From IMG/VR virus record IMGVR_UViG_3300023283_000263, positions 1-64,000 of that record: DNA of 64,000 nt; one strand, written 5' to 3'. The notes below the pieces were generated by a model that was not told the origin of the DNA, ran no database searches, and worked only from the letters and a program-made list of their open reading frames with translations. The position numbers and the translations under genes were made by a program. Position 1 is the stretch's first letter, and the number at the start of each line of letters is the position of its first letter. Shown here piece after piece: positions 3,386 to 27,356 of this stretch. Source of the DNA: a virus (Duplodnaviria; Caudoviricetes).

Positions 3386-4816
3386 ATGAGCCTCGACCTG
3401 ACGAAGCAAATCACCGAGCGCGCGTTCTCGTCGGCCGCGAATGTCCACGAGAAGGGCGACGGGACTCTGGAGTCCGCGATCCGCGGGACACTTCAAGAGG
3501 ACGCGCGCGAGAAGGTCCGCGCGCTGAACGCGGTCGACCTGGTGGACAACTCCGCCGGGGCGGGCGGCGTCGTGTTCACGGCGGACGACTCGACCGACGA
3601 GATCACCCTGGAGGTCGCCTCCGGCCTCCAGACCGGAGACGGTCCGTTCCGGCTGGCGAACACCGGGGGCGCGCTCCCCGGGGGTCTGGCCGCCGGCGCG
3701 GACTTCTGGGTGGTGCGCGAGAGCGCGACTGTGTTCCAGCTCGCGACGTCGCGGGCCAACGCTCTCGGGCGGACCGTCGTCGACGTGACGAGCGCCGGCA
3801 GCGGGACCCACTTCCTGCTCGCACTCAAGGACGGACCGGAGCTGTCCTCGAACGACCTGACCGGGCTCACTACGGGCGTCACGGCGGCTTCGGTGAACGC
3901 CGCGGCCGACACGGTGATGGACGCCTACGCCACGCTGGTCGAGCGGGCGAATCTCGTGCTCGCGGAGCTGGACGCCGGCGCCGCCGCCGAGGGGCCCGGG
4001 ACCGCGGGGGACGGCACGATCGCCGCGATCGACGACACCGCTACCGCGAACACCGACGACACCGACGCCGCGTCCTTCGACTCGGTCCGCGCCGTGCGCG
4101 AGGACCTGGAGGACGCTCAGCGGACCGTGGTCGACCTGGTGAACGTGTGCCGGGGCGCGGTCGGGCTGGACCCGGTCCCGGAGGCCGGGGTACTCGGCGA
4201 GACGTCGAGCGCGTCCGCCAGCGCCCCCGTCCCGGCCGGCGCCGAGGGTGCCGGGCGCAGCACGAAAGGCAACCTCCTCGCCGGCCGCGACCTAGTCGCG
4301 ATCTCCGACGCCGCGAACGTGGAACCGCCGTCGGCGGCCGTCCTCCTCGCGGAGTGGGACGCCTTCGTGGACCACCTGGCGGACAACGTCGCCTTCCTGG
4401 CGGACCAGCTCGACGAGGTGACGGAAGCCGGCGGCAAGGTGGCCGTGCAGGTACCGTTCTTCATCCCGCAGACCGAGTATGCGGCCGGGACCGCCGTCAA
4501 CGTGATCTCGCCGGTCGCCGGCCGCATCCGCAGCGCGCGGACCGTGGTGATGGACGAGGTCACCTCCGGCGCCGCGGCCGTGACCCTCGCGGTCAACGGG
4601 GTCGCCGTCACGGGCGCGTCGATGACGATCGCCGACGCCTCGGCGATCGGTGCCTTCAACGAGGGCGCGGTCGCCGACACGGCGACGAACGTCGTCCGGC
4701 GCGGCGACGTGATCGCCGTCTCGACCGACGGGACGCCGACCGCCGGAGCCGCGTTCGGGTTCGTGGAGATCGAGCTGGAGTCCGAGGGCAAGAAGCCCGC
4801 GGCCTTCGCCGGGTAG
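3386..4816 (+). CDS. Virion decoration/fibre-like protein
   Basis: Ala/Thr/Gly/Asp-rich; same beta-module; C-terminal cement-like beta domain; ATG 3386 with GGAGGG RBS. Confidence 0.6.
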   Translation: MSLDLTKQITERAFSSAANVHEKGDGTLESAIRGTLQEDAREKVRALNAVDLVDNSAGAGGVVFTADDSTDEITLEVASGLQTGDGPFRLANTGGALPGGLAAGADFWVVRESATVFQLATSRANALGRTVVDVTSAGSGTHFLLALKDGPELSSNDLTGLTTGVTAASVNAAADTVMDAYATLVERANLVLAELDAGAAAEGPGTAGDGTIAAIDDTATANTDDTDAASFDSVRAVREDLEDAQRTVVDLVNVCRGAVGLDPVPEAGVLGETSSASASAPVPAGAEGAGRSTKGNLLAGRDLVAISDAANVEPPSAAVLLAEWDAFVDHLADNVAFLADQLDEVTEAGGKVAVQVPFFIPQTEYAAGTAVNVISPVAGRIRSARTVVMDEVTSGAAAVTLAVNGVAVTGASMTIADASAIGAFNEGAVADTATNVVRRGDVIAVSTDGTPTAGAAFGFVEIELESEGKKPAAFAG

Positions 4817-5018
4817 AGGAAGCGCCGGAGAAGCGGGACCGGTCCACCACCGCCCGCTGGGGTCGCCCGAGGGGGGCGGGCGGCCCCGCTCCGGGGCCTT
4901 CGCCGATCGGAGGACGCGAGACGCGGACGCGCGCCGAGGGGTCGGCGACGTCCGCGCCCTGCTGCCCGTCACCCGATCGGCCCTTCTCGGCACTCTGACT
5001 CAGGAGGATCGACCCCCC

Positions 5019-6251
5019 GTGATAGAGACCACCCTCCGCGCCAAGCTCCCCCTCGTCGCGGTCCGCACTTCCGACCCAGTCCACGCGCCGCACGTCGTCG
5101 GCTACCTCGCCGGTCGAGACCGTTCGCCGGCGCCCCTGTTCGACGGACGCAACGTCGACCAGGACGTCGTCTACTGCTGCCTCGGGAACCCCCCGGCGCC
5201 GCGCTCCCCGGCGAAAGCCTCCCGGCGCGACGCGGACCCCGCCGAGCTGCACGAGCGCTTCGCGGGCGCGGGGTCGACGCTCGTCATGGTCAACCCCAAC
5301 GGCGCCGGAGAGTACGCCTTCGACGCCGGCGAGCTGCCGACGCCTCCGGGCGCCGTCGCCGCGTGGCTCGGGCGCCTCGGGATGCGGAGAACCCAAATAG
5401 ACGCGGCTCTGCCGGCGCTCGGCGGTCTGACGCTGCGCGAGGTCGACTGGGTGGTCCGCATCGCGACGGCCGACGGGAGCTGGTCGCCGGCGGACCTCGC
5501 TCGCGCCAGACGGCGAGTCGTCCGCCCCCGCGGCGGGCTGGTCCAGGTCCCGGCGGAGCCGCCGCCAGGTTACAGCGCGCCGAATGCGCTGAAGACCCTG
5601 CTCGTCGACTGGCGGCCCCTCCTCCTGCGGAAGGATGTCGATCGACGGCTCGTCCCGCGCGGGCTGCTCCTGGACGGCGAGCCGGGGACCGGGAAGACCA
5701 CGGCCGCGAAGGCCGTCGCCCGCGACCTGGGGGTCCCCCTCTACCGCTTCGACGCCGCGGCCGTCCGCAATAAGTTCGTCGGCGAGAGCGAGAAAGCTCT
5801 CCAAGCGGCGCTGTCGGCCGCGGACCGAGCCGCGCCCTGCGTCCTGTTGATCGACGAGATCGAGAAGCTCTTCTCGGAGCGCGACGACGAGGGCGCGACG
5901 GCCGGGATTCTGGCCGAGCTGCTCTGGTGGCTCTCCGAACATGAGACGCGGGTCCTCGCGGTCGCCACGACGAACGACCGGACGGTCATACCGCCCGAGC
6001 TGATTCGACCGGGCAGGTTCGACGAGGTCGCGACGCTGGAGAGGCTGACGGAGCCGCAGGCCCGCGACCTAGCTCTCGGACTGGCGCGGACCTACCCGGA
6101 CGTCGAAGTCTCGCGAGAGGCGATTCTCCGGCGTCTGATTCAAGCCGGCTCCGCGGTCCTCCCCGGCTTGACCCCGGCCGAAGTCGAGGCCGTCGTGGTG
6201 GCGGAGGTCCGGAAGGCGATCCTCGCCCGCGACCCCGGGGTCGCGAAGTGA
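5019..6251 (+). CDS. AAA+ ATPase (SpoVK/Ycf46-like)
   Basis: Walker A GEPGTGKT, Walker B LLIDEIEK, ATTN sensor and RPGRFD arginine finger. Confidence 0.85.
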   Translation: MIETTLRAKLPLVAVRTSDPVHAPHVVGYLAGRDRSPAPLFDGRNVDQDVVYCCLGNPPAPRSPAKASRRDADPAELHERFAGAGSTLVMVNPNGAGEYAFDAGELPTPPGAVAAWLGRLGMRRTQIDAALPALGGLTLREVDWVVRIATADGSWSPADLARARRRVVRPRGGLVQVPAEPPPGYSAPNALKTLLVDWRPLLLRKDVDRRLVPRGLLLDGEPGTGKTTAAKAVARDLGVPLYRFDAAAVRNKFVGESEKALQAALSAADRAAPCVLLIDEIEKLFSERDDEGATAGILAELLWWLSEHETRVLAVATTNDRTVIPPELIRPGRFDEVATLERLTEPQARDLALGLARTYPDVEVSREAILRRLIQAGSAVLPGLTPAEVEAVVVAEVRKAILARDPGVAK

Positions 6252-20528: not shown

Positions 20529-22949
20529 GTGTTGTACGTCTGGACGAACGCCGAGCGCGACCTCGTGCACCGCGCGGTCGGCCGGTACTTCGGCGGGCAG
20601 AGGTACAGGACTCGGCACCTCGACGCCGGGCCCCCGCGAGCGACGAAGGGCGACGTCGTCCTCGCGATGGGGGGAGCTGCTCTATCGCAGCTCCGGAGCG
20701 CGGGCATGGTGCCGAAGCAGGGGTCGCTCGACGCCCTGCGAGGACGGCGCGTCGAGGCCGGAGGGCCCGCGTTTCTGCTGTCCTTCGATCCGAAGCTCAC
20801 TTGGAGGGAAGCTGACAAGGCGACGGAGCTGATCAAGGACGCGCGGCGAGCGGAGAGGCTCCACCGAACCGGATCGCTGCGCCCGCGCGTCGGAAAGTAT
20901 GCTTGGGTCAGCTCGCTCGGCGACCTCATCTCGCGCGTCGATAAGAAGCGGGCGGAGACGGGTCGATCGGTGCCGCTGATGCACGACTTGGAAACGCACG
21001 GTCTGTTTCCCTGGTACGACGATCGCGAGATCGTCACGAGCGCGTGGACGGACGGCCCGGGGAGGGCGTGGATCGTCGACCACCGCGCCGACCCGAGGCT
21101 CTCAGATTCGTCTCTCCGCGAGCAGATCGAGTTCTTACTCTTCTCCGACGCCGTGCGGTTGTGGGGGGCGAACCTGAAGTTCGACGTCCTCTGGGAGTGG
21201 GTGAAGTGGGGCCTCCGGACGACTCGGTTCACGTTCGACCTGCTGCTCGGGGCGAGCCTGGAGGACGAGAACCGGAGTAACAGCCTGACCACGCTCTCCT
21301 GGATCAAGACGCCGATGGGCGGCTACGACTCGGACTTCAACGAGCGGTTTGACAAGAGCGACATGCCGTCCGCGCTCGCGAAAGACGCGGAGAGTTTCAA
21401 GGTCTACGCGGGGGGAGACGTAGACGCCGGGTACAGGGCGTGCGTTCCGACGATTCGCTCGATCGCTCGGGACCGCAAGCTCGAACGGTTTTATCGAGAG
21501 CTGCTTCACCCGGGGGCTCGGGTGTTCGAGAAGGTCGAGCGGACGGGCTGGCTCGTCGACGTCGATCGGATGGAGGCGCTGGCGGGAGAGGTGCGCGCCG
21601 ACGTGCGGGCCACGACGGCGGAGGCTATGGGCATGATCCCCGTCCCCGTGAAGGCCAAGCACGCGGACAAGCTGACGCTCGGACGGGCCGCGCTGAAAGT
21701 GGACTTCCTCTTCGACCACCCGGCCGGGCTCCGGCTGGAGCCGAAAGTGTTCGCTCAGAAGAAGACGTACCCCGACGGCGCCCCCTACCCGAGCGTGTCG
21801 ATCAAGGACCACCTCGGCGAATGGCGGCACGACGAGCGCGCCGGTCCGTTCGTGAGGGCGCTGGAACGGCTCGGCGTGTCGGAGAAGACGCTGAGTACGT
21901 TTATCGGCGTCAAGGACAAGAACGGCGAGTACGCGAAGGGGTTCCTGTCCCATCTCCGTCCTGACGGACGCTTTCACCCGACCTACGCGCTCTACCACGG
22001 CGGTCTTTGGGACGACTCGGACGACGACACCGGGACCGTCACCGGCCGGCTCGCTGCCAAGGACCCCGCCGCGCAGGTCCTTCCGAAGCACACGCGCTGG
22101 GCTAAGAAGCTCCGGCAGTGTTACCCGGCTCCGCCCGGGATGGTCTGCTGGCAGCTCGATTTCTCGCAGGGCGAGTTGCGGATCATGGCGTGTCTCGCGA
22201 ACGACGCGCGGATGCTTAGGCTGTACCAGCGAGGCGTCGATCTTCATCTCGTCACGGGGGCGCGGGCAGCGAAGCAGGACTGGCGGAAGGTCGCTGCGTG
22301 GAAGAAGTACGCCGAGGATTCTCCGGAGTTTGCTCGGTACAAGCAGATCCGCCAGGGCGGGAAGGCCGGCAACTTTGGTCTCATCTTTCGGATCTCGGTC
22401 GACGGGTTCATGGAGTACGCTTGGAAGACCTACGGCGTGCGCTTCACGAGGGCGGAGGCGGAAGAGTTCCACGATGGCTTTTTCGAGCTGTACCCGGGCG
22501 TGCGCCGCTACCACGAGCGCCAGGTCGAGCTGGCTCGCAAGGTCGGCTACGTGCGAAACCCGTTCGGCCGCGTCCGGCACCTCCCGCTGATCCTGTCCCC
22601 GGACCGGGAGATGCGGTCGCGGTCGGAGCGCCAGGCGATCAATTCGCCCGTCCAGGGCGGGCTCTCGGATCTCCAGGTCTACGCGCTGGTCGTCGTCGAC
22701 CGCGAGATCGGCGTGGACAGACCAGAGTTCCAGGTCGCCGGGTCGACGCACGACTCCGCTTACGGGTACGCGGCCGAGCGAAACGCGGAGCAGCTCGTGG
22801 CGGACGCCGCCGGGGCCGTGAATCGGATCTCCGAGCCCGGAGGTGCGCTCCAGACGGTGTTCGGCTGGGACCGCCAGATCCCGTTCCCGGTGGACGCCGA
22901 GATCGGCGATACCCTCGGGGACCTGGAGGAAGTGGGCCTGGCGTCCTAA
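20529..22949 (+). CDS. polA: Family A DNA polymerase with 3-5 exonuclease and degenerate UDG-like N-terminal domain
   Basis: Exo HDLET and ANLKFD; TVTGRL; motif A DFSQGELR; motif B KAGNFGLIF; motif C THDS. Confidence 0.92.
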   Translation: MLYVWTNAERDLVHRAVGRYFGGQRYRTRHLDAGPPRATKGDVVLAMGGAALSQLRSAGMVPKQGSLDALRGRRVEAGGPAFLLSFDPKLTWREADKATELIKDARRAERLHRTGSLRPRVGKYAWVSSLGDLISRVDKKRAETGRSVPLMHDLETHGLFPWYDDREIVTSAWTDGPGRAWIVDHRADPRLSDSSLREQIEFLLFSDAVRLWGANLKFDVLWEWVKWGLRTTRFTFDLLLGASLEDENRSNSLTTLSWIKTPMGGYDSDFNERFDKSDMPSALAKDAESFKVYAGGDVDAGYRACVPTIRSIARDRKLERFYRELLHPGARVFEKVERTGWLVDVDRMEALAGEVRADVRATTAEAMGMIPVPVKAKHADKLTLGRAALKVDFLFDHPAGLRLEPKVFAQKKTYPDGAPYPSVSIKDHLGEWRHDERAGPFVRALERLGVSEKTLSTFIGVKDKNGEYAKGFLSHLRPDGRFHPTYALYHGGLWDDSDDDTGTVTGRLAAKDPAAQVLPKHTRWAKKLRQCYPAPPGMVCWQLDFSQGELRIMACLANDARMLRLYQRGVDLHLVTGARAAKQDWRKVAAWKKYAEDSPEFARYKQIRQGGKAGNFGLIFRISVDGFMEYAWKTYGVRFTRAEAEEFHDGFFELYPGVRRYHERQVELARKVGYVRNPFGRVRHLPLILSPDREMRSRSERQAINSPVQGGLSDLQVYALVVVDREIGVDRPEFQVAGSTHDSAYGYAAERNAEQLVADAAGAVNRISEPGGALQTVFGWDRQIPFPVDAEIGDTLGDLEEVGLAS

Positions 22950-22978
22950 CTTCCCGGGGGCCGGAAGGAGGCGTTTTC

Positions 22979-25081
22979 GTGGGCGAGCAGACCAGCGATC
23001 GACTCGACGAGGCCGGGGTCCCGCGCCGGCGCGGTCGAGCGCAGAAGGAGGCGGAAGACTCCGGTCCGCGCGTCGTTTTCTTGCGGCCTCATGCTCGCGC
23101 TCTCCGCGAGGCGGCGGAGGCCGGTCAGGTGTTCGGCGTCGAGGCGGTCGAGTCCCTGAGGCCCGGTCGCGCCGGCGGCGAGACCATCATCGCGAGGAAC
23201 CCGGAGACCGGCGAGACCGTAGAGCGCCGCAAGATCGACCCCGGCTCCCCGATCCAGGGGAGCGACGCCCGGGCCGAGGAAGACGAGTTCGTCCGCACCT
23301 CGACCGGCCAGACCGTCGGTCAGCAGGTCACGGCGCTGGAGCCGCCGTTCTCGTTCCGCGAGCTGGAGACGCTCGTTCAGCGCAACAGCATCCTCCCGCT
23401 TCTGATCGACGCGATGGAGGTGAACGCAGACGGGACGGGGTGGGACATCGAGCCGGCCGACCTCATGCACCCGACGCTCGGAGGCGAGGGGGGCGGTCTC
23501 CAGAGGCGCGGGCCCGGCGACGCGGACTTCGACCCCGACGACGCGGAACTGAACGAAGAGATCGAGCCGGAGGAGCTGGAGAAGAGGAAGCGCGCGGTCG
23601 AGGCGTTCTTCGACGAGCCGTGGCCGCAGACGTCGTTCCTCCCGATCCGCAGGCGCCTCCGGAGAGACCTGGAGACGGTCGGCAACGCCTACATGGAGTG
23701 CCTCTTCAACGCCGCCGACGAGTTGGTTTTCTGTCGCCGCCTCGACCCGAAGTCGATGCGGTTGATCAAGCTGCAGGACGAGGACAAGGTCGAACGCGCG
23801 CTGGAGGTCGACCGGGACGGCGAGCGCGTGGAGATCACGGCGTCCGTTCGCGAGCGCCGGTTCGTCCAGATCGTCGGCGGCAAGCACATCTACTTCGCCG
23901 AGCTGGGCGCGGCCCGCGACCTGGACAAGGAAAGCGGCGAGTGGTCGGAAGGCGGTCCCGCGAAGGACGGCGACCGCCTGGACTTCGACAAGCGCGCGAC
24001 CCAGGTCGTCCACTTCAAGCTCAAGGACGACGTCGCGACCCCCTACGGGTTGCCTCGGTGGATCAGCAACGCGCCTTCCATCGTCGGGTCCCGCCTGGCG
24101 GAAGAGTTCAACCTGGAGTTCTTCGACGCCGGGGGCGTGCCTCCTCTCCTCATCATCGTCTCCGGCGGGCGCATGGCGGCGAAGGCCGAGCAGTCGCTTC
24201 GCCAGCACTTCATGGCGAGCGGGCCCGACCGGCACCAGGCGGCCGTGATGGAGGCGTTCGCCACGGAGGGGGACGTCGACACGGCGTCGAAAGTGGAGGT
24301 CCAGGTCGAGCGGTTCGGCTCCGAGCAGCAACGGGACAGCATGTTCGAGGGCTACATCGAGAAGTCGGAGAGGCGCGTCCAGCGCGCGTTCAGGCTCCCC
24401 GACCTCTTCACCGGCCAGGGCGAGCGCACGAACTTCGCGACCGCGTTCGCGAGTATGCTCGTCGCTGAAGCGCAGGTGTTTCAGACCGAGCGCGCGGAGT
24501 TCGACGAGGTCGTCAATCTCAAGATCCTGCCGCGTCTCAGGTGGGGCGAGCAGTTCGTCTTTAAGTCCCGGCCTCTCTCGGTGCGGGACGTGACGCAGCA
24601 GCTCGCGGCGTTGAGTATCGTGCTCGGGGCCGGCATCGCGGACGCGGAGAGCGTGCTGGAGAACGTCAACACCGTCACCGGGCTCGCGCTGCGGCCGGCC
24701 GGGGAGGAGGACGACCAGGCCGGCGCCGGCGGCGGGGGGAGCAGGATCGACGGCGGCAGGCCCGGCGACGCGCGCGGGCGCGGCCCGAGGACGCGGGCTC
24801 GGTCCGACGGCGCACCTGCTCTGAAGCTGGGGGCCGAGGTGGAGCTGGCCGCGCTCGCGCGATCCGTCGCCGAGTACCTGGAGGCCGGCGCCGTAGGCGG
24901 CGACGAGTGGCTGGAAGTCAGGGCGAAGCTCGACGCGCTCCGCGGGGAGGAGGTCCGGGTGTTTCGGCAGAAGCTCGCGACCGTGCTGTACCCGGCTCTG
25001 AAGTACGATCCGATGGGGGCGGAGGAGCTGGCGACGGGCGTGCTCGCGATCCTGGGGCTCGGACGTGACCGCCCCGCTTAG
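22979..25081 (+). CDS. Portal protein (PBSX-like)
   Basis: GTG 22979 with GGAGG RBS; DLETVGNAYME, YGLPRW, NLEFFDAGGVP motifs. Confidence 0.8.
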   Translation: MGEQTSDRLDEAGVPRRRGRAQKEAEDSGPRVVFLRPHARALREAAEAGQVFGVEAVESLRPGRAGGETIIARNPETGETVERRKIDPGSPIQGSDARAEEDEFVRTSTGQTVGQQVTALEPPFSFRELETLVQRNSILPLLIDAMEVNADGTGWDIEPADLMHPTLGGEGGGLQRRGPGDADFDPDDAELNEEIEPEELEKRKRAVEAFFDEPWPQTSFLPIRRRLRRDLETVGNAYMECLFNAADELVFCRRLDPKSMRLIKLQDEDKVERALEVDRDGERVEITASVRERRFVQIVGGKHIYFAELGAARDLDKESGEWSEGGPAKDGDRLDFDKRATQVVHFKLKDDVATPYGLPRWISNAPSIVGSRLAEEFNLEFFDAGGVPPLLIIVSGGRMAAKAEQSLRQHFMASGPDRHQAAVMEAFATEGDVDTASKVEVQVERFGSEQQRDSMFEGYIEKSERRVQRAFRLPDLFTGQGERTNFATAFASMLVAEAQVFQTERAEFDEVVNLKILPRLRWGEQFVFKSRPLSVRDVTQQLAALSIVLGAGIADAESVLENVNTVTGLALRPAGEEDDQAGAGGGGSRIDGGRPGDARGRGPRTRARSDGAPALKLGAEVELAALARSVAEYLEAGAVGGDEWLEVRAKLDALRGEEVRVFRQKLATVLYPALKYDPMGAEELATGVLAILGLGRDRPA

Positions 25082-26927
25082 CGTCGGCGAGCGCTTTGAC
25101 CCGGGGGCTCGCAGCGTTCGGCCGTCGGCGCGATCGTTCCTGACGCTGGAGATCACGATCCGCAAGCGCCTGGAGCGACGCTGGTTGGAGCAGGTAGCGA
25201 GGCCGGCGCAGCGGAGGATCCGGCGCGCGGTCGCGCGCCGCGACTTCGACGCTGCCAGGGACGCGGCCCGCGCGATCTCTTTCGACCCGGTGATCGAGGG
25301 CCAGGAGGGGTTCCTCCGCACGATGGCGCTGTCGGCGGTCGTGCTCGGGGCTTCTTTCTTCTCCGGCGACGCGAGCGATACCGTGTTCGTCGACGGAGGG
25401 GTCCCCGAGGAGGCGGAGATCGCGGCGAGCGCGCTCCTCGGCTTCCTGCAGGACGGCGCGGCCGAAAGCGTCCGGGAGGAGGCCCTGCGCCTGATCGACG
25501 CCGTCGAGGCCGCGGTCGCGGCGGATAGGTTCAAGCAGGACGAGATCGACGTCGCCCCGGAGACGCCTGCGGGCCTGCGCCGAGCGCTGCAATCCATCGC
25601 CGAGCCGAGTCCAGAGAGTCGCCCCCCGATAGTGGCGAGTCCTCGGGATTTCGCGACTCGGCTCAACCGGGCCGTCGCGCGCGGCGGGATCCAGGGTACC
25701 GGCATCGGCGCGAACCTGTCGACGAGTCGGCTGATCCAGTTCGGGGCCCTCGCCCAGGCCGAGGCGCAGGGCGAGCAGAGCTATCAGATCACGGAGATTC
25801 TCGACGATCGGACTTGTCCTTTTTGCCGGGGGATGCACGGTAAGGTGTTCGAGGTCGCCCCGGCGCAGGACAGGCTCTTCCGCCAGCTCAGGGAGACGGA
25901 CCCTCTGGCGCTGAAGTCGGCGTTCCCATTCCCGTCGACGAATCAGGCAGCCATCGCCGCGTTCTCGCGTCTCTCGAACGACCAGCTGCGAGAACTCGGC
26001 CATGACACGCCCCCGTATCATCCCTGGTGTCTACCTGGGGACGCTCGTATAGCGTCCTGTGGTCCGATCGCGGGCGAGAGTCGTCGCTGGTTCGATGGTC
26101 AGCTCGTCGTCGTCGACACGGCCCGAGGCAACCACCTCCGCCTGACCCCGAACCACCCGGTACTCACGGATCGCGGATGGGTCGCGGCGGGCTCGCTCGA
26201 TGAACGCGACCGCGTAGTCGAATGTCGCGGCGTCCAGGGGCCGGAACGCCGTCTGGTGCCAGAGCATCAGGACGTCCCACCCACCGCGGAGCAGGTGTTC
26301 GAGGCGTTTCGGCGTTCTAGCGGCGTGACGACCCGAGAAGTGCCAGGAACCCCTGAATACTTCCACGGCGACGGGCGCCGCGGCGAGGTCGACGTTGTAC
26401 GGGCCGATCGCCTTCTGGGGCACGACGTCGGACACGCCGCGGTTTTCGAGTGCGCGCATTACGGCTCTCTCCAGATCGCTGCTGCGCGGGCGCTGTTCGC
26501 GCGTTTGCGCGCGTTTGCAGAGGGAATCTACGGAGTGGCGCGAGCCGCGCGAGGCGCGATGGGCGGCTTCGACCTGGCGCCGGCGTTCGCGGTTGCTCAT
26601 GCGCTTCCATCGTGCCCTCACGGCGTTGCTCCGGCTTCGCACGACGCCGGCGGCGCGGAGGAATCGGAGCACCGTGGTCTTCGAGACGCCGAGATTCTGC
26701 CCGATCTTGCTCGCCGGTTCCCCGGACGAGTAGCGTTCGACCACGTCGTCGGGGTCCGGCGGGAGCCATTTTCGGGCCAGGTATACAACCTCGAAACCGA
26801 GGACGGCTATTATGTAGCGGACTCGATAGTGGTGAGTAACTGCCGCGGAACCGTCGTCTCCGTCGGGACCGTCCCCGACGAGCAGATCACCGGCTTCCAG
26901 CCCGTCAGGGGCGCGATTCCGGTCTGA
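25065..26927 (+). CDS. Mu gpF/SPP1 gp7-like minor head protein, intein-containing precursor
   Basis: LDDRTCPFC and PPYHPW/CRGTVV motifs split by a Hint domain. Confidence 0.85.
   Translation: MTAPLSVGERFDPGARSVRPSARSFLTLEITIRKRLERRWLEQVARPAQRRIRRAVARRDFDAARDAARAISFDPVIEGQEGFLRTMALSAVVLGASFFSGDASDTVFVDGGVPEEAEIAASALLGFLQDGAAESVREEALRLIDAVEAAVAADRFKQDEIDVAPETPAGLRRALQSIAEPSPESRPPIVASPRDFATRLNRAVARGGIQGTGIGANLSTSRLIQFGALAQAEAQGEQSYQITEILDDRTCPFCRGMHGKVFEVAPAQDRLFRQLRETDPLALKSAFPFPSTNQAAIAAFSRLSNDQLRELGHDTPPYHPWCLPGDARIASCGPIAGESRRWFDGQLVVVDTARGNHLRLTPNHPVLTDRGWVAAGSLDERDRVVECRGVQGPERRLVPEHQDVPPTAEQVFEAFRRSSGVTTREVPGTPEYFHGDGRRGEVDVVRADRLLGHDVGHAAVFECAHYGSLQIAAARALFARLRAFAEGIYGVARAARGAMGGFDLAPAFAVAHALPSCPHGVAPASHDAGGAEESEHRGLRDAEILPDLARRFPGRVAFDHVVGVRREPFSGQVYNLETEDGYYVADSIVVSNCRGTVVSVGTVPDEQITGFQPVRGAIPV
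26028..26840 (+). mobile_element. Intein (271 aa) inserted in gpF PPYHPW^CR motif
   Basis: Block A CLPGD, block B LTPNHPVLT, block F VYNLETE, terminal VVSN followed by Cys+1 (26841). Confidence 0.9.
26031..26744 (-). CDS. Antisense homing-endonuclease-like protein: HTH + NUMOD3-like + DUF559/Vsr-like nuclease
   Basis: YSSGEPASKIGQNLGVSKTTVLRFL (HTH); GSRHSVDSLCKRA; SDLERAV..QKAIGPYNVDL..VEV..SWH..GWDVLMLW. Confidence 0.75.
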   Translation of the reverse strand: MVERYSSGEPASKIGQNLGVSKTTVLRFLRAAGVVRSRSNAVRARWKRMSNRERRRQVEAAHRASRGSRHSVDSLCKRAQTREQRPRSSDLERAVMRALENRGVSDVVPQKAIGPYNVDLAAAPVAVEVFRGSWHFSGRHAARTPKRLEHLLRGGWDVLMLWHQTAFRPLDAATFDYAVAFIERARRDPSAIREYRVVRGQAEVVASGRVDDDELTIEPATTLARDRTTGRYTSVPR

Positions 26928-27065
26928 GGGGCGGGGGCGAGCTGTAGATCGGCGATTTTCTCGGGCCCCTTAGGGAAGACGAGGACGAGCGTCACCTTCT
27001 GAGGTGATGGAGGCACGCTCTAGGAGCGCAGGATCAGCGCCGCGACGGGTAGAGAGGATCGGGCG

Positions 27066-27356
27066 GTGGCCGAAGACGCCCCGCGACCCCGGGGTCGCGG
27101 AAAGTGGACGGAGATTCGACGAGAGACCGGGCTCGTCGAGTACGTGTGCGAGCACGGAGTCGGGCACCCTGCCGTCGGGTCCGCGCTCTGGCAGGCCGAG
27201 ACTCGCCGCGAGGACGAGGAAGCGTGGATGATCCACGGCTGCGACGGATGCTGCGCGCGGGACGACTTTCCCGGGACGGCGATCGAGTCGCTCAAGCGCG
27301 CCCACCAGATCATCCGCGTCCTGAAAAGGAGGCTCCGAGAGTGCAGGTCATCCTGA
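27066..27356 (+). CDS. Hypothetical Cys/His protein
   Basis: CEHGVGHP...IHGCDGCC metal-binding pattern. Confidence 0.6.
   Translation: MAEDAPRPRGRGKWTEIRRETGLVEYVCEHGVGHPAVGSALWQAETRREDEEAWMIHGCDGCCARDDFPGTAIESLKRAHQIIRVLKRRLRECRSS

What the first reader, a model, noticed from the sequence alone, without database searches (positions are those of the whole stretch)
26028..26840. Intein whose endonuclease is encoded on the opposite strand
Seen: the gpF-like head protein is split at PPYHPW^CR by a 271-aa intein with blocks A (CLPGD), B (TPNHP), F and G (VVSN/C) and no LAGLIDADG motifs. The minus strand of the same DNA (26744-26031) reads as an HTH, then a NUMOD3-like segment, then SDLERAV..QKAIGPYNVDL..VEV..SWH..GWDVLMLW. 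Its TAG stop is exactly the complement of the intein Leu2 codon (CTA 26031-33), so the two genes are codon-in-register and the nuclease gene overlaps Hint blocks A and B. Known: DUF559/Vsr-like nucleases act as homing endonucleases, normally in-frame within inteins. Inference: this is a dual-coding mobile element (splicing domain sense, homing nuclease antisense). It is the only credible minus-strand gene in the window. A weak CATAAT -10-like box lies on the minus strand at 26814-26809.
Basis: partly seen in the sequence, partly recalled or inferred. Interest (0 to 1): 0.92.

Follow-up and report, generated by a model that had tools for sequence, protein, structure and literature searches.

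The report
MuF intein with antisense homing endonuclease
A self-splicing protein insert (intein) in this phage's head-assembly gene carries its DNA-cutting "homing" enzyme as a separate gene on the opposite DNA strand, so about 700 bases encode two proteins; the feature is real and under selection, but a 2025 preprint already described this layout, so it is a new example rather than a new kind.

Summary
The MuF-like head gene (25065-26927, +) carries a canonical 271-aa class-1 intein (26028-26840) in the motif PPYHPW|CR. The minus strand (26031-26744, or to 26780) encodes an HTH plus Vsr-like nuclease in exact codon register, and its TAG stop is the complement of intein Leu2.

It is not a high-GC shadow ORF.
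- In all 83 related loci (G+C 0.39-0.71) both frames stay open, always in the same register.
- Sense-frame codons that would stop the nuclease frame occur 0 times against about 316 expected.
- Over the intein centre, the nuclease frame is the better conserved and its third codon position varies most.
- The antisense protein folds at pLDDT 91 and matches Vsr (Z 12.6) and I-Bth0305I (Z 10.7). The sense-frame centre folds poorly.
- Close relatives carry exact intein-less alleles.

Novelty is limited. Gosselin, Arsenault & Gogarten (bioRxiv 2025) reported anti-sense VSR-like endonucleases in actinobacteriophage minor-capsid inteins. This scan has also flagged the layout repeatedly on other DNA.

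Not in that preprint: spread to Salmonella, E. coli, Pseudomonas and Vibrio phages, and promoter, Shine-Dalgarno, start and stop signals written into the complement of splicing blocks G, F and A.

The window copy lacks the usual ATG (CTG instead) and may be weakly expressed or starting to decay.

The parts
25065..26927 (+). MuF-like head morphogenesis / minor capsid gene (620-aa precursor including the intein); the start codon is approximate
   Evidence: Pfam Phage_Mu_F (weak), phrog_15127 head protein E 7.5e-32. It lies directly after the portal gene (22298-25081, Phage_portal).
26028..26840 (+). Class-1 intein, 271 aa, Cys1 to terminal Asn, followed by Cys+1, inserted in the conserved MuF motif PPxHPx|CR
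   Evidence: invariant C1, H43 (block B TPNHP) and N271 across 46 inteins. The exact empty site is seen in K1ind2 against Snoke.
26028..26225 (+). Hint N-terminal splicing part (blocks A and B); here the sense frame is the more constrained one, and it is also the complement of the nuclease C-terminal tail
   Evidence: pLDDT 86-97 for residues 1-66; codon-position variability follows the sense frame here.
26226..26687 (+). Intein central insert in the sense frame: a passenger polypeptide whose conserved residues mirror the nuclease's
   Evidence: low pLDDT (36-69) over about residues 120-220. with the mapping m = 252 - n: sense P84, P106, H113, D115 and G116 are complements of nuclease W168, W146, V139, V137 and P136. 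G+C by codon position follows the minus strand.
26688..26840 (+). Hint C-terminal splicing part (blocks F and G, ...QVYNLETEDGYYVADSIVVSN)
   Evidence: pLDDT 84-98 for residues 221-271; alignment.
26031..26780 (-). Antisense gene for HTH + Vsr-like endonuclease. It is 237 aa from GTG 26744, or 249 aa if read from CTG 26780, the position where relatives have ATG or GTG. TAG stop at 26033-26031.
26652..26753 (-). N-terminal helix-turn-helix DNA-binding domain (residues about 10-43 of the 249-aa form)
   Evidence: HTH_7 E 5e-4; HTH_23/58/7 hits in many relatives; Hin/resolvase HTH Z about 6; PDB 2lvs E 7e-5.
26121..26486 (-). Vsr/DUF559-like PD-(D/E)xK-superfamily nuclease domain (residues 99-220) with invariant E104, QKAIGPYNxD131, E140, W146-H147 and R159
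   Evidence: invariant columns. Vsr 1cw0 Z 12.6 (rmsd 2.2 A, 113 aligned), I-Bth0305I 3r3p Z 10.7, DUF559 3hrl Z 9.5. PF18741 in 37 of 47.
26789..26792 (-). Shine-Dalgarno-like GAGG, 8 nt before CTG 26780; it is the complement of the Leu codon (CTC) of block F 'YNLE'
   Evidence: GGAGG or GAGG at the same place in most relatives.
26809..26814 (-). -10-like CATAAT, within 2 nt of where relatives carry TATAAT preceded by TTGACA; degenerate here (8 of 12)
26841..26927 (+). C-extein of MuF (CRGTVVS..., 28 aa plus stop)

Best explanation
This is a composite mobile element in the phage's MuF (head morphogenesis) gene.

On the plus strand, a class-1 intein is translated as part of MuF and splices itself out using its Hint blocks A/B and F/G. 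The roughly 150 residues between them are a passenger peptide. On the minus strand, codon against codon, the same DNA encodes a separate protein of about 240 aa: an N-terminal helix-turn-helix domain, a helical linker and a Vsr/DUF559-like nuclease.

This protein most likely acts as the homing endonuclease. It would cut intein-less MuF alleles at or near the PPxHPxCR coding site during co-infection, and recombinational repair would then copy the whole intein with the antisense gene into the cut allele.

In relatives, the nuclease's expression signals are written into the complement of the splicing blocks. The promoter lies opposite block G, the SD and start codon opposite block F, and the stop codon opposite intein Leu2. 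The element therefore carries everything it needs.

Shown here: both frames are conserved and open, the nuclease frame is under the stronger purifying selection in the centre, the fold is Vsr-like, the signals are conserved, and the distribution is sporadic with exact empty sites. Inferred: transcription, translation, cleavage specificity, homing and splicing.

The window's own copy is intact in frame and keeps all invariant residues. It has CTG and CGA where relatives have ATG, and its promoter match is weak, so it may be poorly expressed or at an early stage of decay.
For: (1) In all 83 loci (68 unique, G+C 0.39-0.71), the nuclease frame and the opposite frame are both open across the whole match, always in the same register.

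(2) Sense-frame TTA, CTA and TCA codons, which would be antisense stops, occur 0 times inside the overlap against 316 expected from the same ORFs outside it. For example, 15 are expected in the 39% G+C locus L075.

(3) Nucleotide entropy at nuclease codon positions 1/2/3 is 1.30/1.02/1.54. Amino-acid identity is 0.39 in the nuclease frame against 0.28 in the sense frame on the same codons, and the nuclease frame is higher in 99.8% of pairs (97% when the alignment is built on the sense frame). The pattern reverses over Hint blocks A/B.

(4) In the window, G+C at codon positions in the intein centre is 0.70/0.54/0.83 on the minus frame, against a gene norm of 0.70/0.50/0.89.

(5) Pfam PF18741 hits 37 of 47 relatives (best 1.5e-10), with DUF559, Vsr and HTH families as well.

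(6) The AlphaFold model has pLDDT 91. It matches Vsr at Z 12.6, I-Bth0305I at Z 10.7 and DUF559 at Z 9.5. The control fold of the sense frame from the same loci is poor in the centre.

(7) ATG or GTG with GGAGG or GAGG sits at fixed positions opposite block F; the start is opposite intein codon 20 from the C-terminal Asn in 32 of 59 loci. The stop is opposite intein codon 2 or 3 in 30 of 59.

(8) TTGACA-N17-TATAAT is matched at 10 of 12 or better in 17 of 56 loci, against 0.23% of background windows. An extended -10 is present in 19 of 56.

(9) Kagunaviruses such as K1ind2 carry the exact intein-less allele, about 90% identical in the exteins.

(10) An independent report of the same layout exists for actinobacteriophages.
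Against: There is no expression or activity data. No RNA run holds this DNA, and no proteomics or cleavage assay is available.

The window copy has no ATG, GTG or TTG at either usual start site. Its only canonical start is GTG 26744, which has no SD and removes residues 1-12, clipping the start of the first predicted HTH helix (residues 10-18). It differs from the consensus at 3 of 30 columns that are at least 90% conserved (G143R, Y162H, one G to A), against a family mean of 0.9. No sigma-70-type promoter passes the scan in the window.

The last acidic residue of the Vsr/EDxHD catalytic set appears to be replaced by an invariant Arg. This rests on residue counting from my memory of the Vsr sequence, not on a tool result, so the chemistry may differ from Vsr.
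Confidence: 0.85

Rival explanations
1. High-GC shadow ORF. The minus frame is open only because the in-register antisense frame of a GC-rich gene rarely contains stops, and no protein is made.
For: The window is about 70% G+C and has many such ORFs, for example a 919-aa shadow opposite the portal gene. 69 minus-strand stop-free spans of at least 200 codons were found.
Against: The frame is equally open in relatives with 39-50% G+C, where 7-16 stops per locus are expected. The nuclease frame is the better conserved one. It gives Pfam nuclease and HTH hits and a confident Vsr-like fold.
Confidence: 0.01
2. The family is real, but the copy in this window is an inactive relic. The start codon and promoter have eroded, so this intein can still splice but no longer homes.
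For: The window has CTG and CGA where relatives have ATG. Its promoter match is 8 of 12, which is within background. It has three departures at near-invariant positions, the second highest count in the alignment.
Against: There is no stop or frameshift in 249 codons. All 13 invariant residues are kept. The SD GAGG keeps its correct 8-nt spacing. High-G+C relatives also tend to lack a sigma-70 consensus match, so its absence says little. From general knowledge, CTG and GTG starts are used in GC-rich bacteria.
Confidence: 0.25
3. The antisense protein is real but is not a homing enzyme. It might be a DNA-binding regulator or nickase that serves the phage (for example in superinfection exclusion, or against competing phages) and merely resides in the intein.
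For: Cleavage of the empty MuF site is untested. The HTH domain would suit a regulator. The preprint notes that several VSR-like groups look vertically inherited.
Against: In every phage locus examined it is embedded in this intein at the same MuF site; one distant archaeal homolog lies outside an open intein frame. The element is present or absent as a unit between phages about 90% identical in their exteins. The closest structural relatives include a proven homing endonuclease (PMC3239194). The nuclease residues are invariant.
Confidence: 0.08
4. The functional endonuclease is the sense-frame central domain, and the antisense conservation is a by-product of it.
For: A few sense-frame residues in the centre are nearly invariant (FHGDG, P84, P106). 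Residues 80-110 of the sense model reach pLDDT 79-89.
Against: Those residues are exact complements of invariant nuclease residues (AVE, W, W). Sense codon position 1 varies most in the centre. The sense centre gives no Pfam domain and folds with low confidence.
Confidence: 0.02

Closest known systems
Inteins with anti-sense VSR-like homing endonucleases in actinobacteriophage minor capsid and other genes (Gosselin, Arsenault & Gogarten, bioRxiv 2025, doi 10.1101/2025.01.02.630785)
   Same: A full (unsplit) intein with a VSR-like endonuclease ORF on the anti-sense strand. Minor capsid (MuF-type) is a host gene. The predicted structure matches Vsr 1CW0 and 3R3P. The ORFs are unannotated because they overlap another gene.
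   Different: That survey covers PhagesDB actinobacteriophages only. The family found here also occurs in Salmonella, Escherichia, Pseudomonas, Vibrio and Haemophilus/Aggregatibacter phages and in contigs of 39-71% G+C. [quoted passage not shown] It reports no meaningful PDB match for the N-terminal stretch of turns and helices, whereas residues 1-48 here match Hin/resolvase-type HTH domains. Term searches of its main text found no promoter, ribosome-binding, start-codon or selection analysis.
'Fractured genes': split inteins with a free-standing Vsr-like (EDxHD) homing endonuclease gene between the halves (Dassa et al. 2009, PMC2677866); I-Bth0305I (Taylor et al. 2011, PMC3239194)
   Same: A Vsr-fold nuclease with a separate N-terminal DNA-binding region, associated with inteins in phage-like DNA. 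I-Bth0305I is experimentally a homing endonuclease and is a top structural match (Z 10.7).
   Different: There the host gene is broken into two genes and the endonuclease gene lies between them, overlapping the downstream gene only briefly (6-69 bp). Here the intein stays contiguous, and the endonuclease is read from the opposite strand over about 700 bp of double coding. The DNA-binding part there carries NUMOD-type motifs; here it is an HTH.
Anti-sense LAGLIDADG endonuclease ORFs in inteins (Synechocystis DnaX, Chloroflexus SpoVR-like; Gorbalenya 1998 and Gogarten 2002, as cited in the 2025 preprint)
   Same: The endonuclease is encoded on the strand opposite a contiguous intein.
   Different: A different nuclease family (LAGLIDADG against Vsr-like) and different host genes. 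I did not read these papers directly; they are cited through.
Canonical bifunctional inteins (in-frame LAGLIDADG or HNH domain, such as PI-SceI)
   Same: The same insertion logic: a conserved host motif, Hint blocks flanking the endonuclease-coding region, and presumed homing by break repair.
   Different: There the endonuclease is a domain of the same polypeptide. Here it is a separate protein from the other strand, and the in-frame insert is a passenger.

Membership tests
Class-1 intein (Hint domain) | N-terminal Cys/Ser, block B TxxH, C-terminal Asn followed by Cys/Ser/Thr at +1 | tested here: met
   Cys1 (26028), TPNHP (T40, H43), Asn271 (26838-40), Cys+1. C1, H43 and N271 are invariant in 46 inteins.
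Class-1 intein (Hint domain) | Hint fold of the N- and C-terminal parts | tested here: inconclusive
   Residues 1-66 and 221-271 are confidently modelled as beta-strands, but that model was not searched against structures. Pfam Intein_splicing matches at E 0.0023, below the curated cut-off.
Class-1 intein (Hint domain) | Precise insertion in a conserved host motif, with an intein-less allele existing | tested here: met
   PPAHPN|CRSTT is contiguous in K1ind2 and interrupted by 272 codons in Snoke. The same HPx|C site is used in nearly all loci.
Class-1 intein (Hint domain) | Protein splicing activity | not testable with these tools
   Inferred from the conserved catalytic residues and from the role of MuF in head assembly.
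Vsr / DUF559 / MTES_1575 branch of the PD-(D/E)xK nuclease superfamily | Sequence match to the family profiles | tested here: met
   The window protein hits PF18741 at E 2.4e-5, below the gathering score. 37 of 47 relatives hit it (best 1.5e-10), 8 hit DUF559 and 3 hit Vsr.
Vsr / DUF559 / MTES_1575 branch of the PD-(D/E)xK nuclease superfamily | Vsr-type fold | tested here: met
   1cw0 Z 12.6 (rmsd 2.2 A, 113 residues), 1vsr Z 11.9, 3hrl Z 9.5.
Vsr / DUF559 / MTES_1575 branch of the PD-(D/E)xK nuclease superfamily | Conserved catalytic Asp, and the W-H pair after the central strand | tested here: met
   D131 is invariant. E140, W146 and H147 are conserved in at least 90% of sequences and are present in the window.
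EDxHD homing endonucleases (I-Bth0305I type) | Composite E, D, H, D catalytic motif | tested here: inconclusive
   E104, D131 and H147 are present. At the place where Vsr has its last Asp, counting back from the GW motif gives an invariant Arg (R159), as in DUF559. That mapping rests on my own counting from memory of the Vsr sequence, not on a structure-based residue alignment.
EDxHD homing endonucleases (I-Bth0305I type) | Structural similarity of the catalytic domain | tested here: met
   3r3p is the top Foldseek hit (TM 0.61 on the target) and scores Z 10.7.
EDxHD homing endonucleases (I-Bth0305I type) | Site-specific cleavage of the element-free allele | not testable with these tools
Anti-sense VSR-like HEN inteins (2025 preprint) | Contiguous intein, with a VSR-like ORF on the opposite strand inside it | tested here: met
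   definition taken.
   No NUMOD3 hit for the window protein at E<=1. None appears among the 25 families most often hit in relatives.

The most novel reading that the evidence does not exclude
The whole expression cassette of the antisense endonuclease is written into the complement of the intein's conserved splicing blocks. The -35 and -10 boxes lie opposite block G (LSSN / YI), the SD opposite the Leu codon of 'YNLE' and the start opposite the His codon of 'GHVY' in block F, and the stop opposite Leu2 of block A. If so, selection for splicing and selection for nuclease expression would act on the same bases and lock the two selfish functions together. This one element family would also span phages of Actinobacteria and Proteobacteria, and may reach archaeal proviruses. 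None of this is in the 2025 preprint.
Probability: 0.55. Interest if true: 0.55.

Novelty: new member of a known kind. Interest (0 to 1): 0.4.

Why it matters
The MuF intein was described in 2004 as lacking a recognisable endonuclease, with doubt cast on its mobility (PMC517821). The antisense gene explains how it can be mobile.

The case is also one of the longest and best-supported examples of two proteins encoded codon against codon on opposite strands in phage DNA. It is a useful test case for dual-coding constraints. The gene is unannotated or labelled only 'hypothetical protein' in the public phage records examined, including well-studied Jerseyvirus and Kagunavirus phages that are considered for biocontrol.

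For this particular window the value is confirmatory, because the layout is already in the literature and has been found repeatedly by this scan.

Tried and rejected
- **Literature:** searches with 'antisense', 'opposite strand', 'complementary strand', 'very short patch', 'head morphogenesis' and 'MuF' did not find a report of the layout. Only the hyphenated 'anti-sense' found the preprint, after a lead from earlier scan notes.
- **PDB by sequence:** phmmer of the single protein against PDB gave nothing useful. The profile gave only weak hits: 2lvs HTH at 7e-5 and 3hrl at 0.065.
- **Foldseek:** E-values were all above 0.001. The VIA-align second look was needed to get clear Z-scores.
- **Promoter and terminator scan of 25800-27300:** nothing found.
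- **Sequencing runs:** no RNA holder is listed. Three DNA metagenome runs from one study hold the stretch, and one of them may be the source sample.
- **Other minus-strand candidates in the window** (56588-57856, 54599-55462, 579-1268) and their plus-strand counterparts gave no Pfam hits. The claim that this is the only minus-strand gene stays undecided.
- **Not run:** The search of protein representatives, complex prediction and the ESM Atlas, because the question was settled without them.
- **Considered and rejected:** a split-intein 'fractured gene' reading. The sense frame is open through the whole nuclease gene in all 83 loci, including AT-rich ones.
Full report
**What is in the sequence**

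The window is 64 kb of a complete 77.8-kb phage genome with terminal repeats and about 70% G+C. A portal gene (22298-25081, Pfam Phage_portal) is followed by a 620-aa ORF (25065-26927). This ORF matches MuF/head-morphogenesis families: Pfam Phage_Mu_F weakly, and phrog_15127 at E 7.5e-32.

The ORF is interrupted after PPYHPW by a 271-aa class-1 intein at 26028-26840. The intein has Cys1, block A CLPGD, block B TPNHP and blocks F/G ...QVYNLETEDGYYVADSIVVSN, followed by Cys+1.

The minus strand carries an ORF at 26031-26744 (237 aa). Its TAG stop is the complement of the intein's Leu2 codon, CTA at 26031-33.

**Is the minus ORF more than a shadow?**

Openness alone proves nothing at 70% G+C. The in-register antisense frame has stops only opposite TTA, CTA and TCA, which are rare in GC-rich genes, and a 919-aa shadow lies opposite the portal gene. 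The evidence comes from elsewhere.

- *Family hits.* The minus protein hits Pfam PF18741 (REase_MTES_1575, a Vsr/DUF559-like family; E 2.4e-5) and HTH_7 (E 5e-4).
- *Phage relatives.* tblastn finds it in 113 phage records: Salmonella 62, Gordonia 15, Pseudomonas 15, Escherichia 6, Vibrio 4 and others. In the three records inspected it lies antisense to the MuF/head-morphogenesis gene.
- *Both frames open.* Across 80 IMG/VR loci, 3 GenBank loci and the window (68 unique sequences, G+C 0.39-0.71), both the nuclease frame and the opposite frame are open across the whole match, always in the same codon register.
- *Forbidden codons.* Sense-frame codons that would stop the nuclease frame occur 0 times against 316 expected from the same ORFs outside the overlap. 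Between 7 and 16 are expected per locus in the AT-rich phages.
- *Selection.* On a codon alignment, nuclease codon position 3 varies most (entropy 1.30/1.02/1.54). The nuclease-frame translation is more conserved than the sense-frame translation of the same codons (identity 0.39 against 0.28, higher in 99.8% of pairs). This holds in 97% of pairs when the alignment is built on the sense frame. The pattern flips over the last 50 or so nuclease codons, which lie opposite Hint blocks A/B.
- *Composition in the window.* The intein centre has the genome's gene-like G+C profile on the minus frame (0.70/0.54/0.83 against a norm of 0.70/0.50/0.89). The N-extein has it on the plus frame.

**What the antisense protein is**

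An alignment of 47 members (A1) shows invariant E104, QKAIGPYNxD131 and R159. E140, GGxWH (W146, H147) and GW (167-168) are nearly invariant.

Pfam on the members gives PF18741 in 37 of 47 (best 1.5e-10), DUF559 in 8, Vsr in 3, and HTH families in many.

AlphaFold gives mean pLDDT 91 and pTM 0.69. Residues 99-220 match Vsr (1cw0 Z 12.6, rmsd 2.2 A over 113 residues; 1vsr Z 11.9), the catalytic domain of the homing endonuclease I-Bth0305I (3r3p Z 10.7, also the top Foldseek hit) and the DUF559 protein 3hrl (Z 9.5). Residues 1-48 match Hin/resolvase-type HTH domains (Z about 6).

As a control, I aligned and folded the sense-frame inteins from the same loci (A2). The Hint parts (residues 1-66 and 221-271) are confident, while about residues 120-220 fall to pLDDT 36-69.

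The few near-invariant sense residues in the centre (P84, P106, H113, D115, G116) are exact complements of invariant nuclease residues. Intein residue m lies opposite nuclease residue 252 - m, so for example Trp TGG lies opposite Pro CCA.

It is modelled as helical linker.

**The intein and its mobility**

Nearly all loci have Cys1 ... Asn|Cys+1, a length of 267-348 aa and the same insertion site HPx|C(R).

Snoke and K1ind2 are E. coli Kagunavirus phages whose MuF exteins are about 90% identical. They differ by the exact presence or absence of 272 codons (PPAHPN|CRSTT), and many other Kagunaviruses carry the empty allele. That sporadic, precise distribution is what a homing element produces.

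**Expression signals**

In most relatives the nuclease ORF starts with ATG or GTG opposite block F. In 32 of 59 loci the start lies opposite intein codon 20 counted from the terminal Asn, often the His codon of 'GHVY'. It is preceded by GGAGG or GAGG, which is the complement of the Leu codon of 'YNLE'. The stop lies opposite intein codon 2 or 3 in 30 of 59.

Starting at the complement of the terminal Asn codon, 17 of 56 unique loci match TTGACA-N16-18-TATAAT at 10 of 12 or better. Seven are perfect, against 0.23% of background windows. Another 19 loci carry an extended -10. About half the loci have a longer form with a second N-terminal HTH.

These signals point to a self-contained gene. They are consensus matches, not evidence of transcription.

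**The window's copy**

It keeps the SD (GAGG, 26792-26789, 8 nt from the codon at 26780). However, it has CTG at the usual start and CGA at the alternative start used by some relatives. The only canonical start is GTG 26744, which has no SD.

Its promoter match is 8 of 12, with CATAAT at 26814-26809 within 2 nt of the relatives' -10 box. That score is within background.

It departs from the consensus at 3 of 30 near-invariant columns, against a family mean of 0.9. It keeps all invariant residues and has no stop or frameshift. I put about a quarter probability on this copy being poorly expressed or already inactive.

**Comparison with what is known**

Earlier notes from this scan showed the same layout flagged on many other genomes, and several cited a 2025 preprint. 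I checked the preprint directly: Gosselin, Arsenault & Gogarten (bioRxiv, doi 10.1101/2025.01.02.630785).

- It matches the predicted structure to Vsr 1CW0 (Z 10.6) and to 3R3P by HHpred.
- It notes that anti-sense LAGLIDADG ORFs in inteins go back to Gorbalenya 1998.

So the kind is known. The nearest older relatives are the 'fractured genes' of Dassa et al. 2009 (PMC2677866), where a Vsr-like endonuclease gene lies between the halves of a split intein, and the characterised enzyme I-Bth0305I (PMC3239194). The M. capsulatus genome paper of 2004 described a MuF intein that 'lacks a recognizable endonuclease' (PMC517821).

Several things here are not in the preprint's main text:
- the spread beyond actinobacteriophages;
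- the codon-position and forbidden-codon tests;
- the HTH assignment;
- the overlap with blocks A, B and F;
- the promoter, SD, start and stop signals embedded in the splicing blocks.

**Verdict**

The novelty class is a new member of a known kind. Interest is moderate (0.4): it is a striking and well-supported case of long antisense double coding, but it is already published as a preprint and has been found repeatedly by this scan.

Noticed in passing
L086:4001-4708 (+), archaeal MAG contig (Candidatus Nitrosocosmicus sp., GCA_031316275.1): The most distant homolog of the nuclease (P0046, 31% identity, all motifs intact) is not inside an open opposite-strand frame. It lies convergent to a minus-strand gene (4741-5688) that ends ...DDKVCKRYCRPLEG...IPQP, which looks like a MuF gene truncated at the intein site, and it is next to a DDE transposase. 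It may be a decayed or free-standing state of the element in an archaeal provirus.
   Followed up: partly
L005, L006, L012, L014, L015, L023, L026, L028, L035, L040, L043, L048, L058, L065, L070, L071, L074, L078, L082 (nuclease strand): About half of the related loci encode a longer nuclease (about 280-310 aa) with a second HTH repeat at the N-terminus. The matching inteins are 315-348 aa instead of about 272. PDB 2lvs, a tandem-HTH protein, matches both repeats.
   Followed up: partly
Related loci, first about 40 nt on the nuclease strand from the complement of the intein's terminal Asn codon (for example L034, L047, L065, L075, L077, L082): A perfect TTGACA-N17-TATAAT promoter is encoded opposite the block G residues ...LSSN. 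The 'HN' subfamily instead carries TGTGTTATAAT (an extended -10) opposite ...ITHN.
   Followed up: yes
window 22946-25705 (-): A 919-aa minus-strand ORF lies opposite the portal and MuF genes. It is an in-register shadow ORF typical of 70% G+C DNA and shows that an open antisense frame alone is not evidence of a gene here.
   Followed up: partly
GenBank records PV360690.1 (Salmonella phage PK1) and LC507823.1 (vB_StyS-sam): In PK1 the antisense ORF is annotated as a 'hypothetical protein' overlapping the head morphogenesis gene. The vB_StyS-sam record lists two hypothetical proteins under the same gene (strand not checked). In most other records nothing is annotated there. In a few records the MuF gene is labelled 'NAD+--asparagine ADP-ribosyltransferase'.
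   Followed up: no
L039:2905-3849 (-): This intein carries an extra insertion of about 45 aa between block A and the following strand, and its host ORF is 1771 aa (a portal-MuF fusion or a longer polyprotein).
   Followed up: no
window 56588-57856 (-): A 422-aa minus-strand ORF with an ATG start has no Pfam hit, and neither do the overlapping plus-strand ORFs. The coding strand in this part of the window is unresolved.
   Followed up: partly
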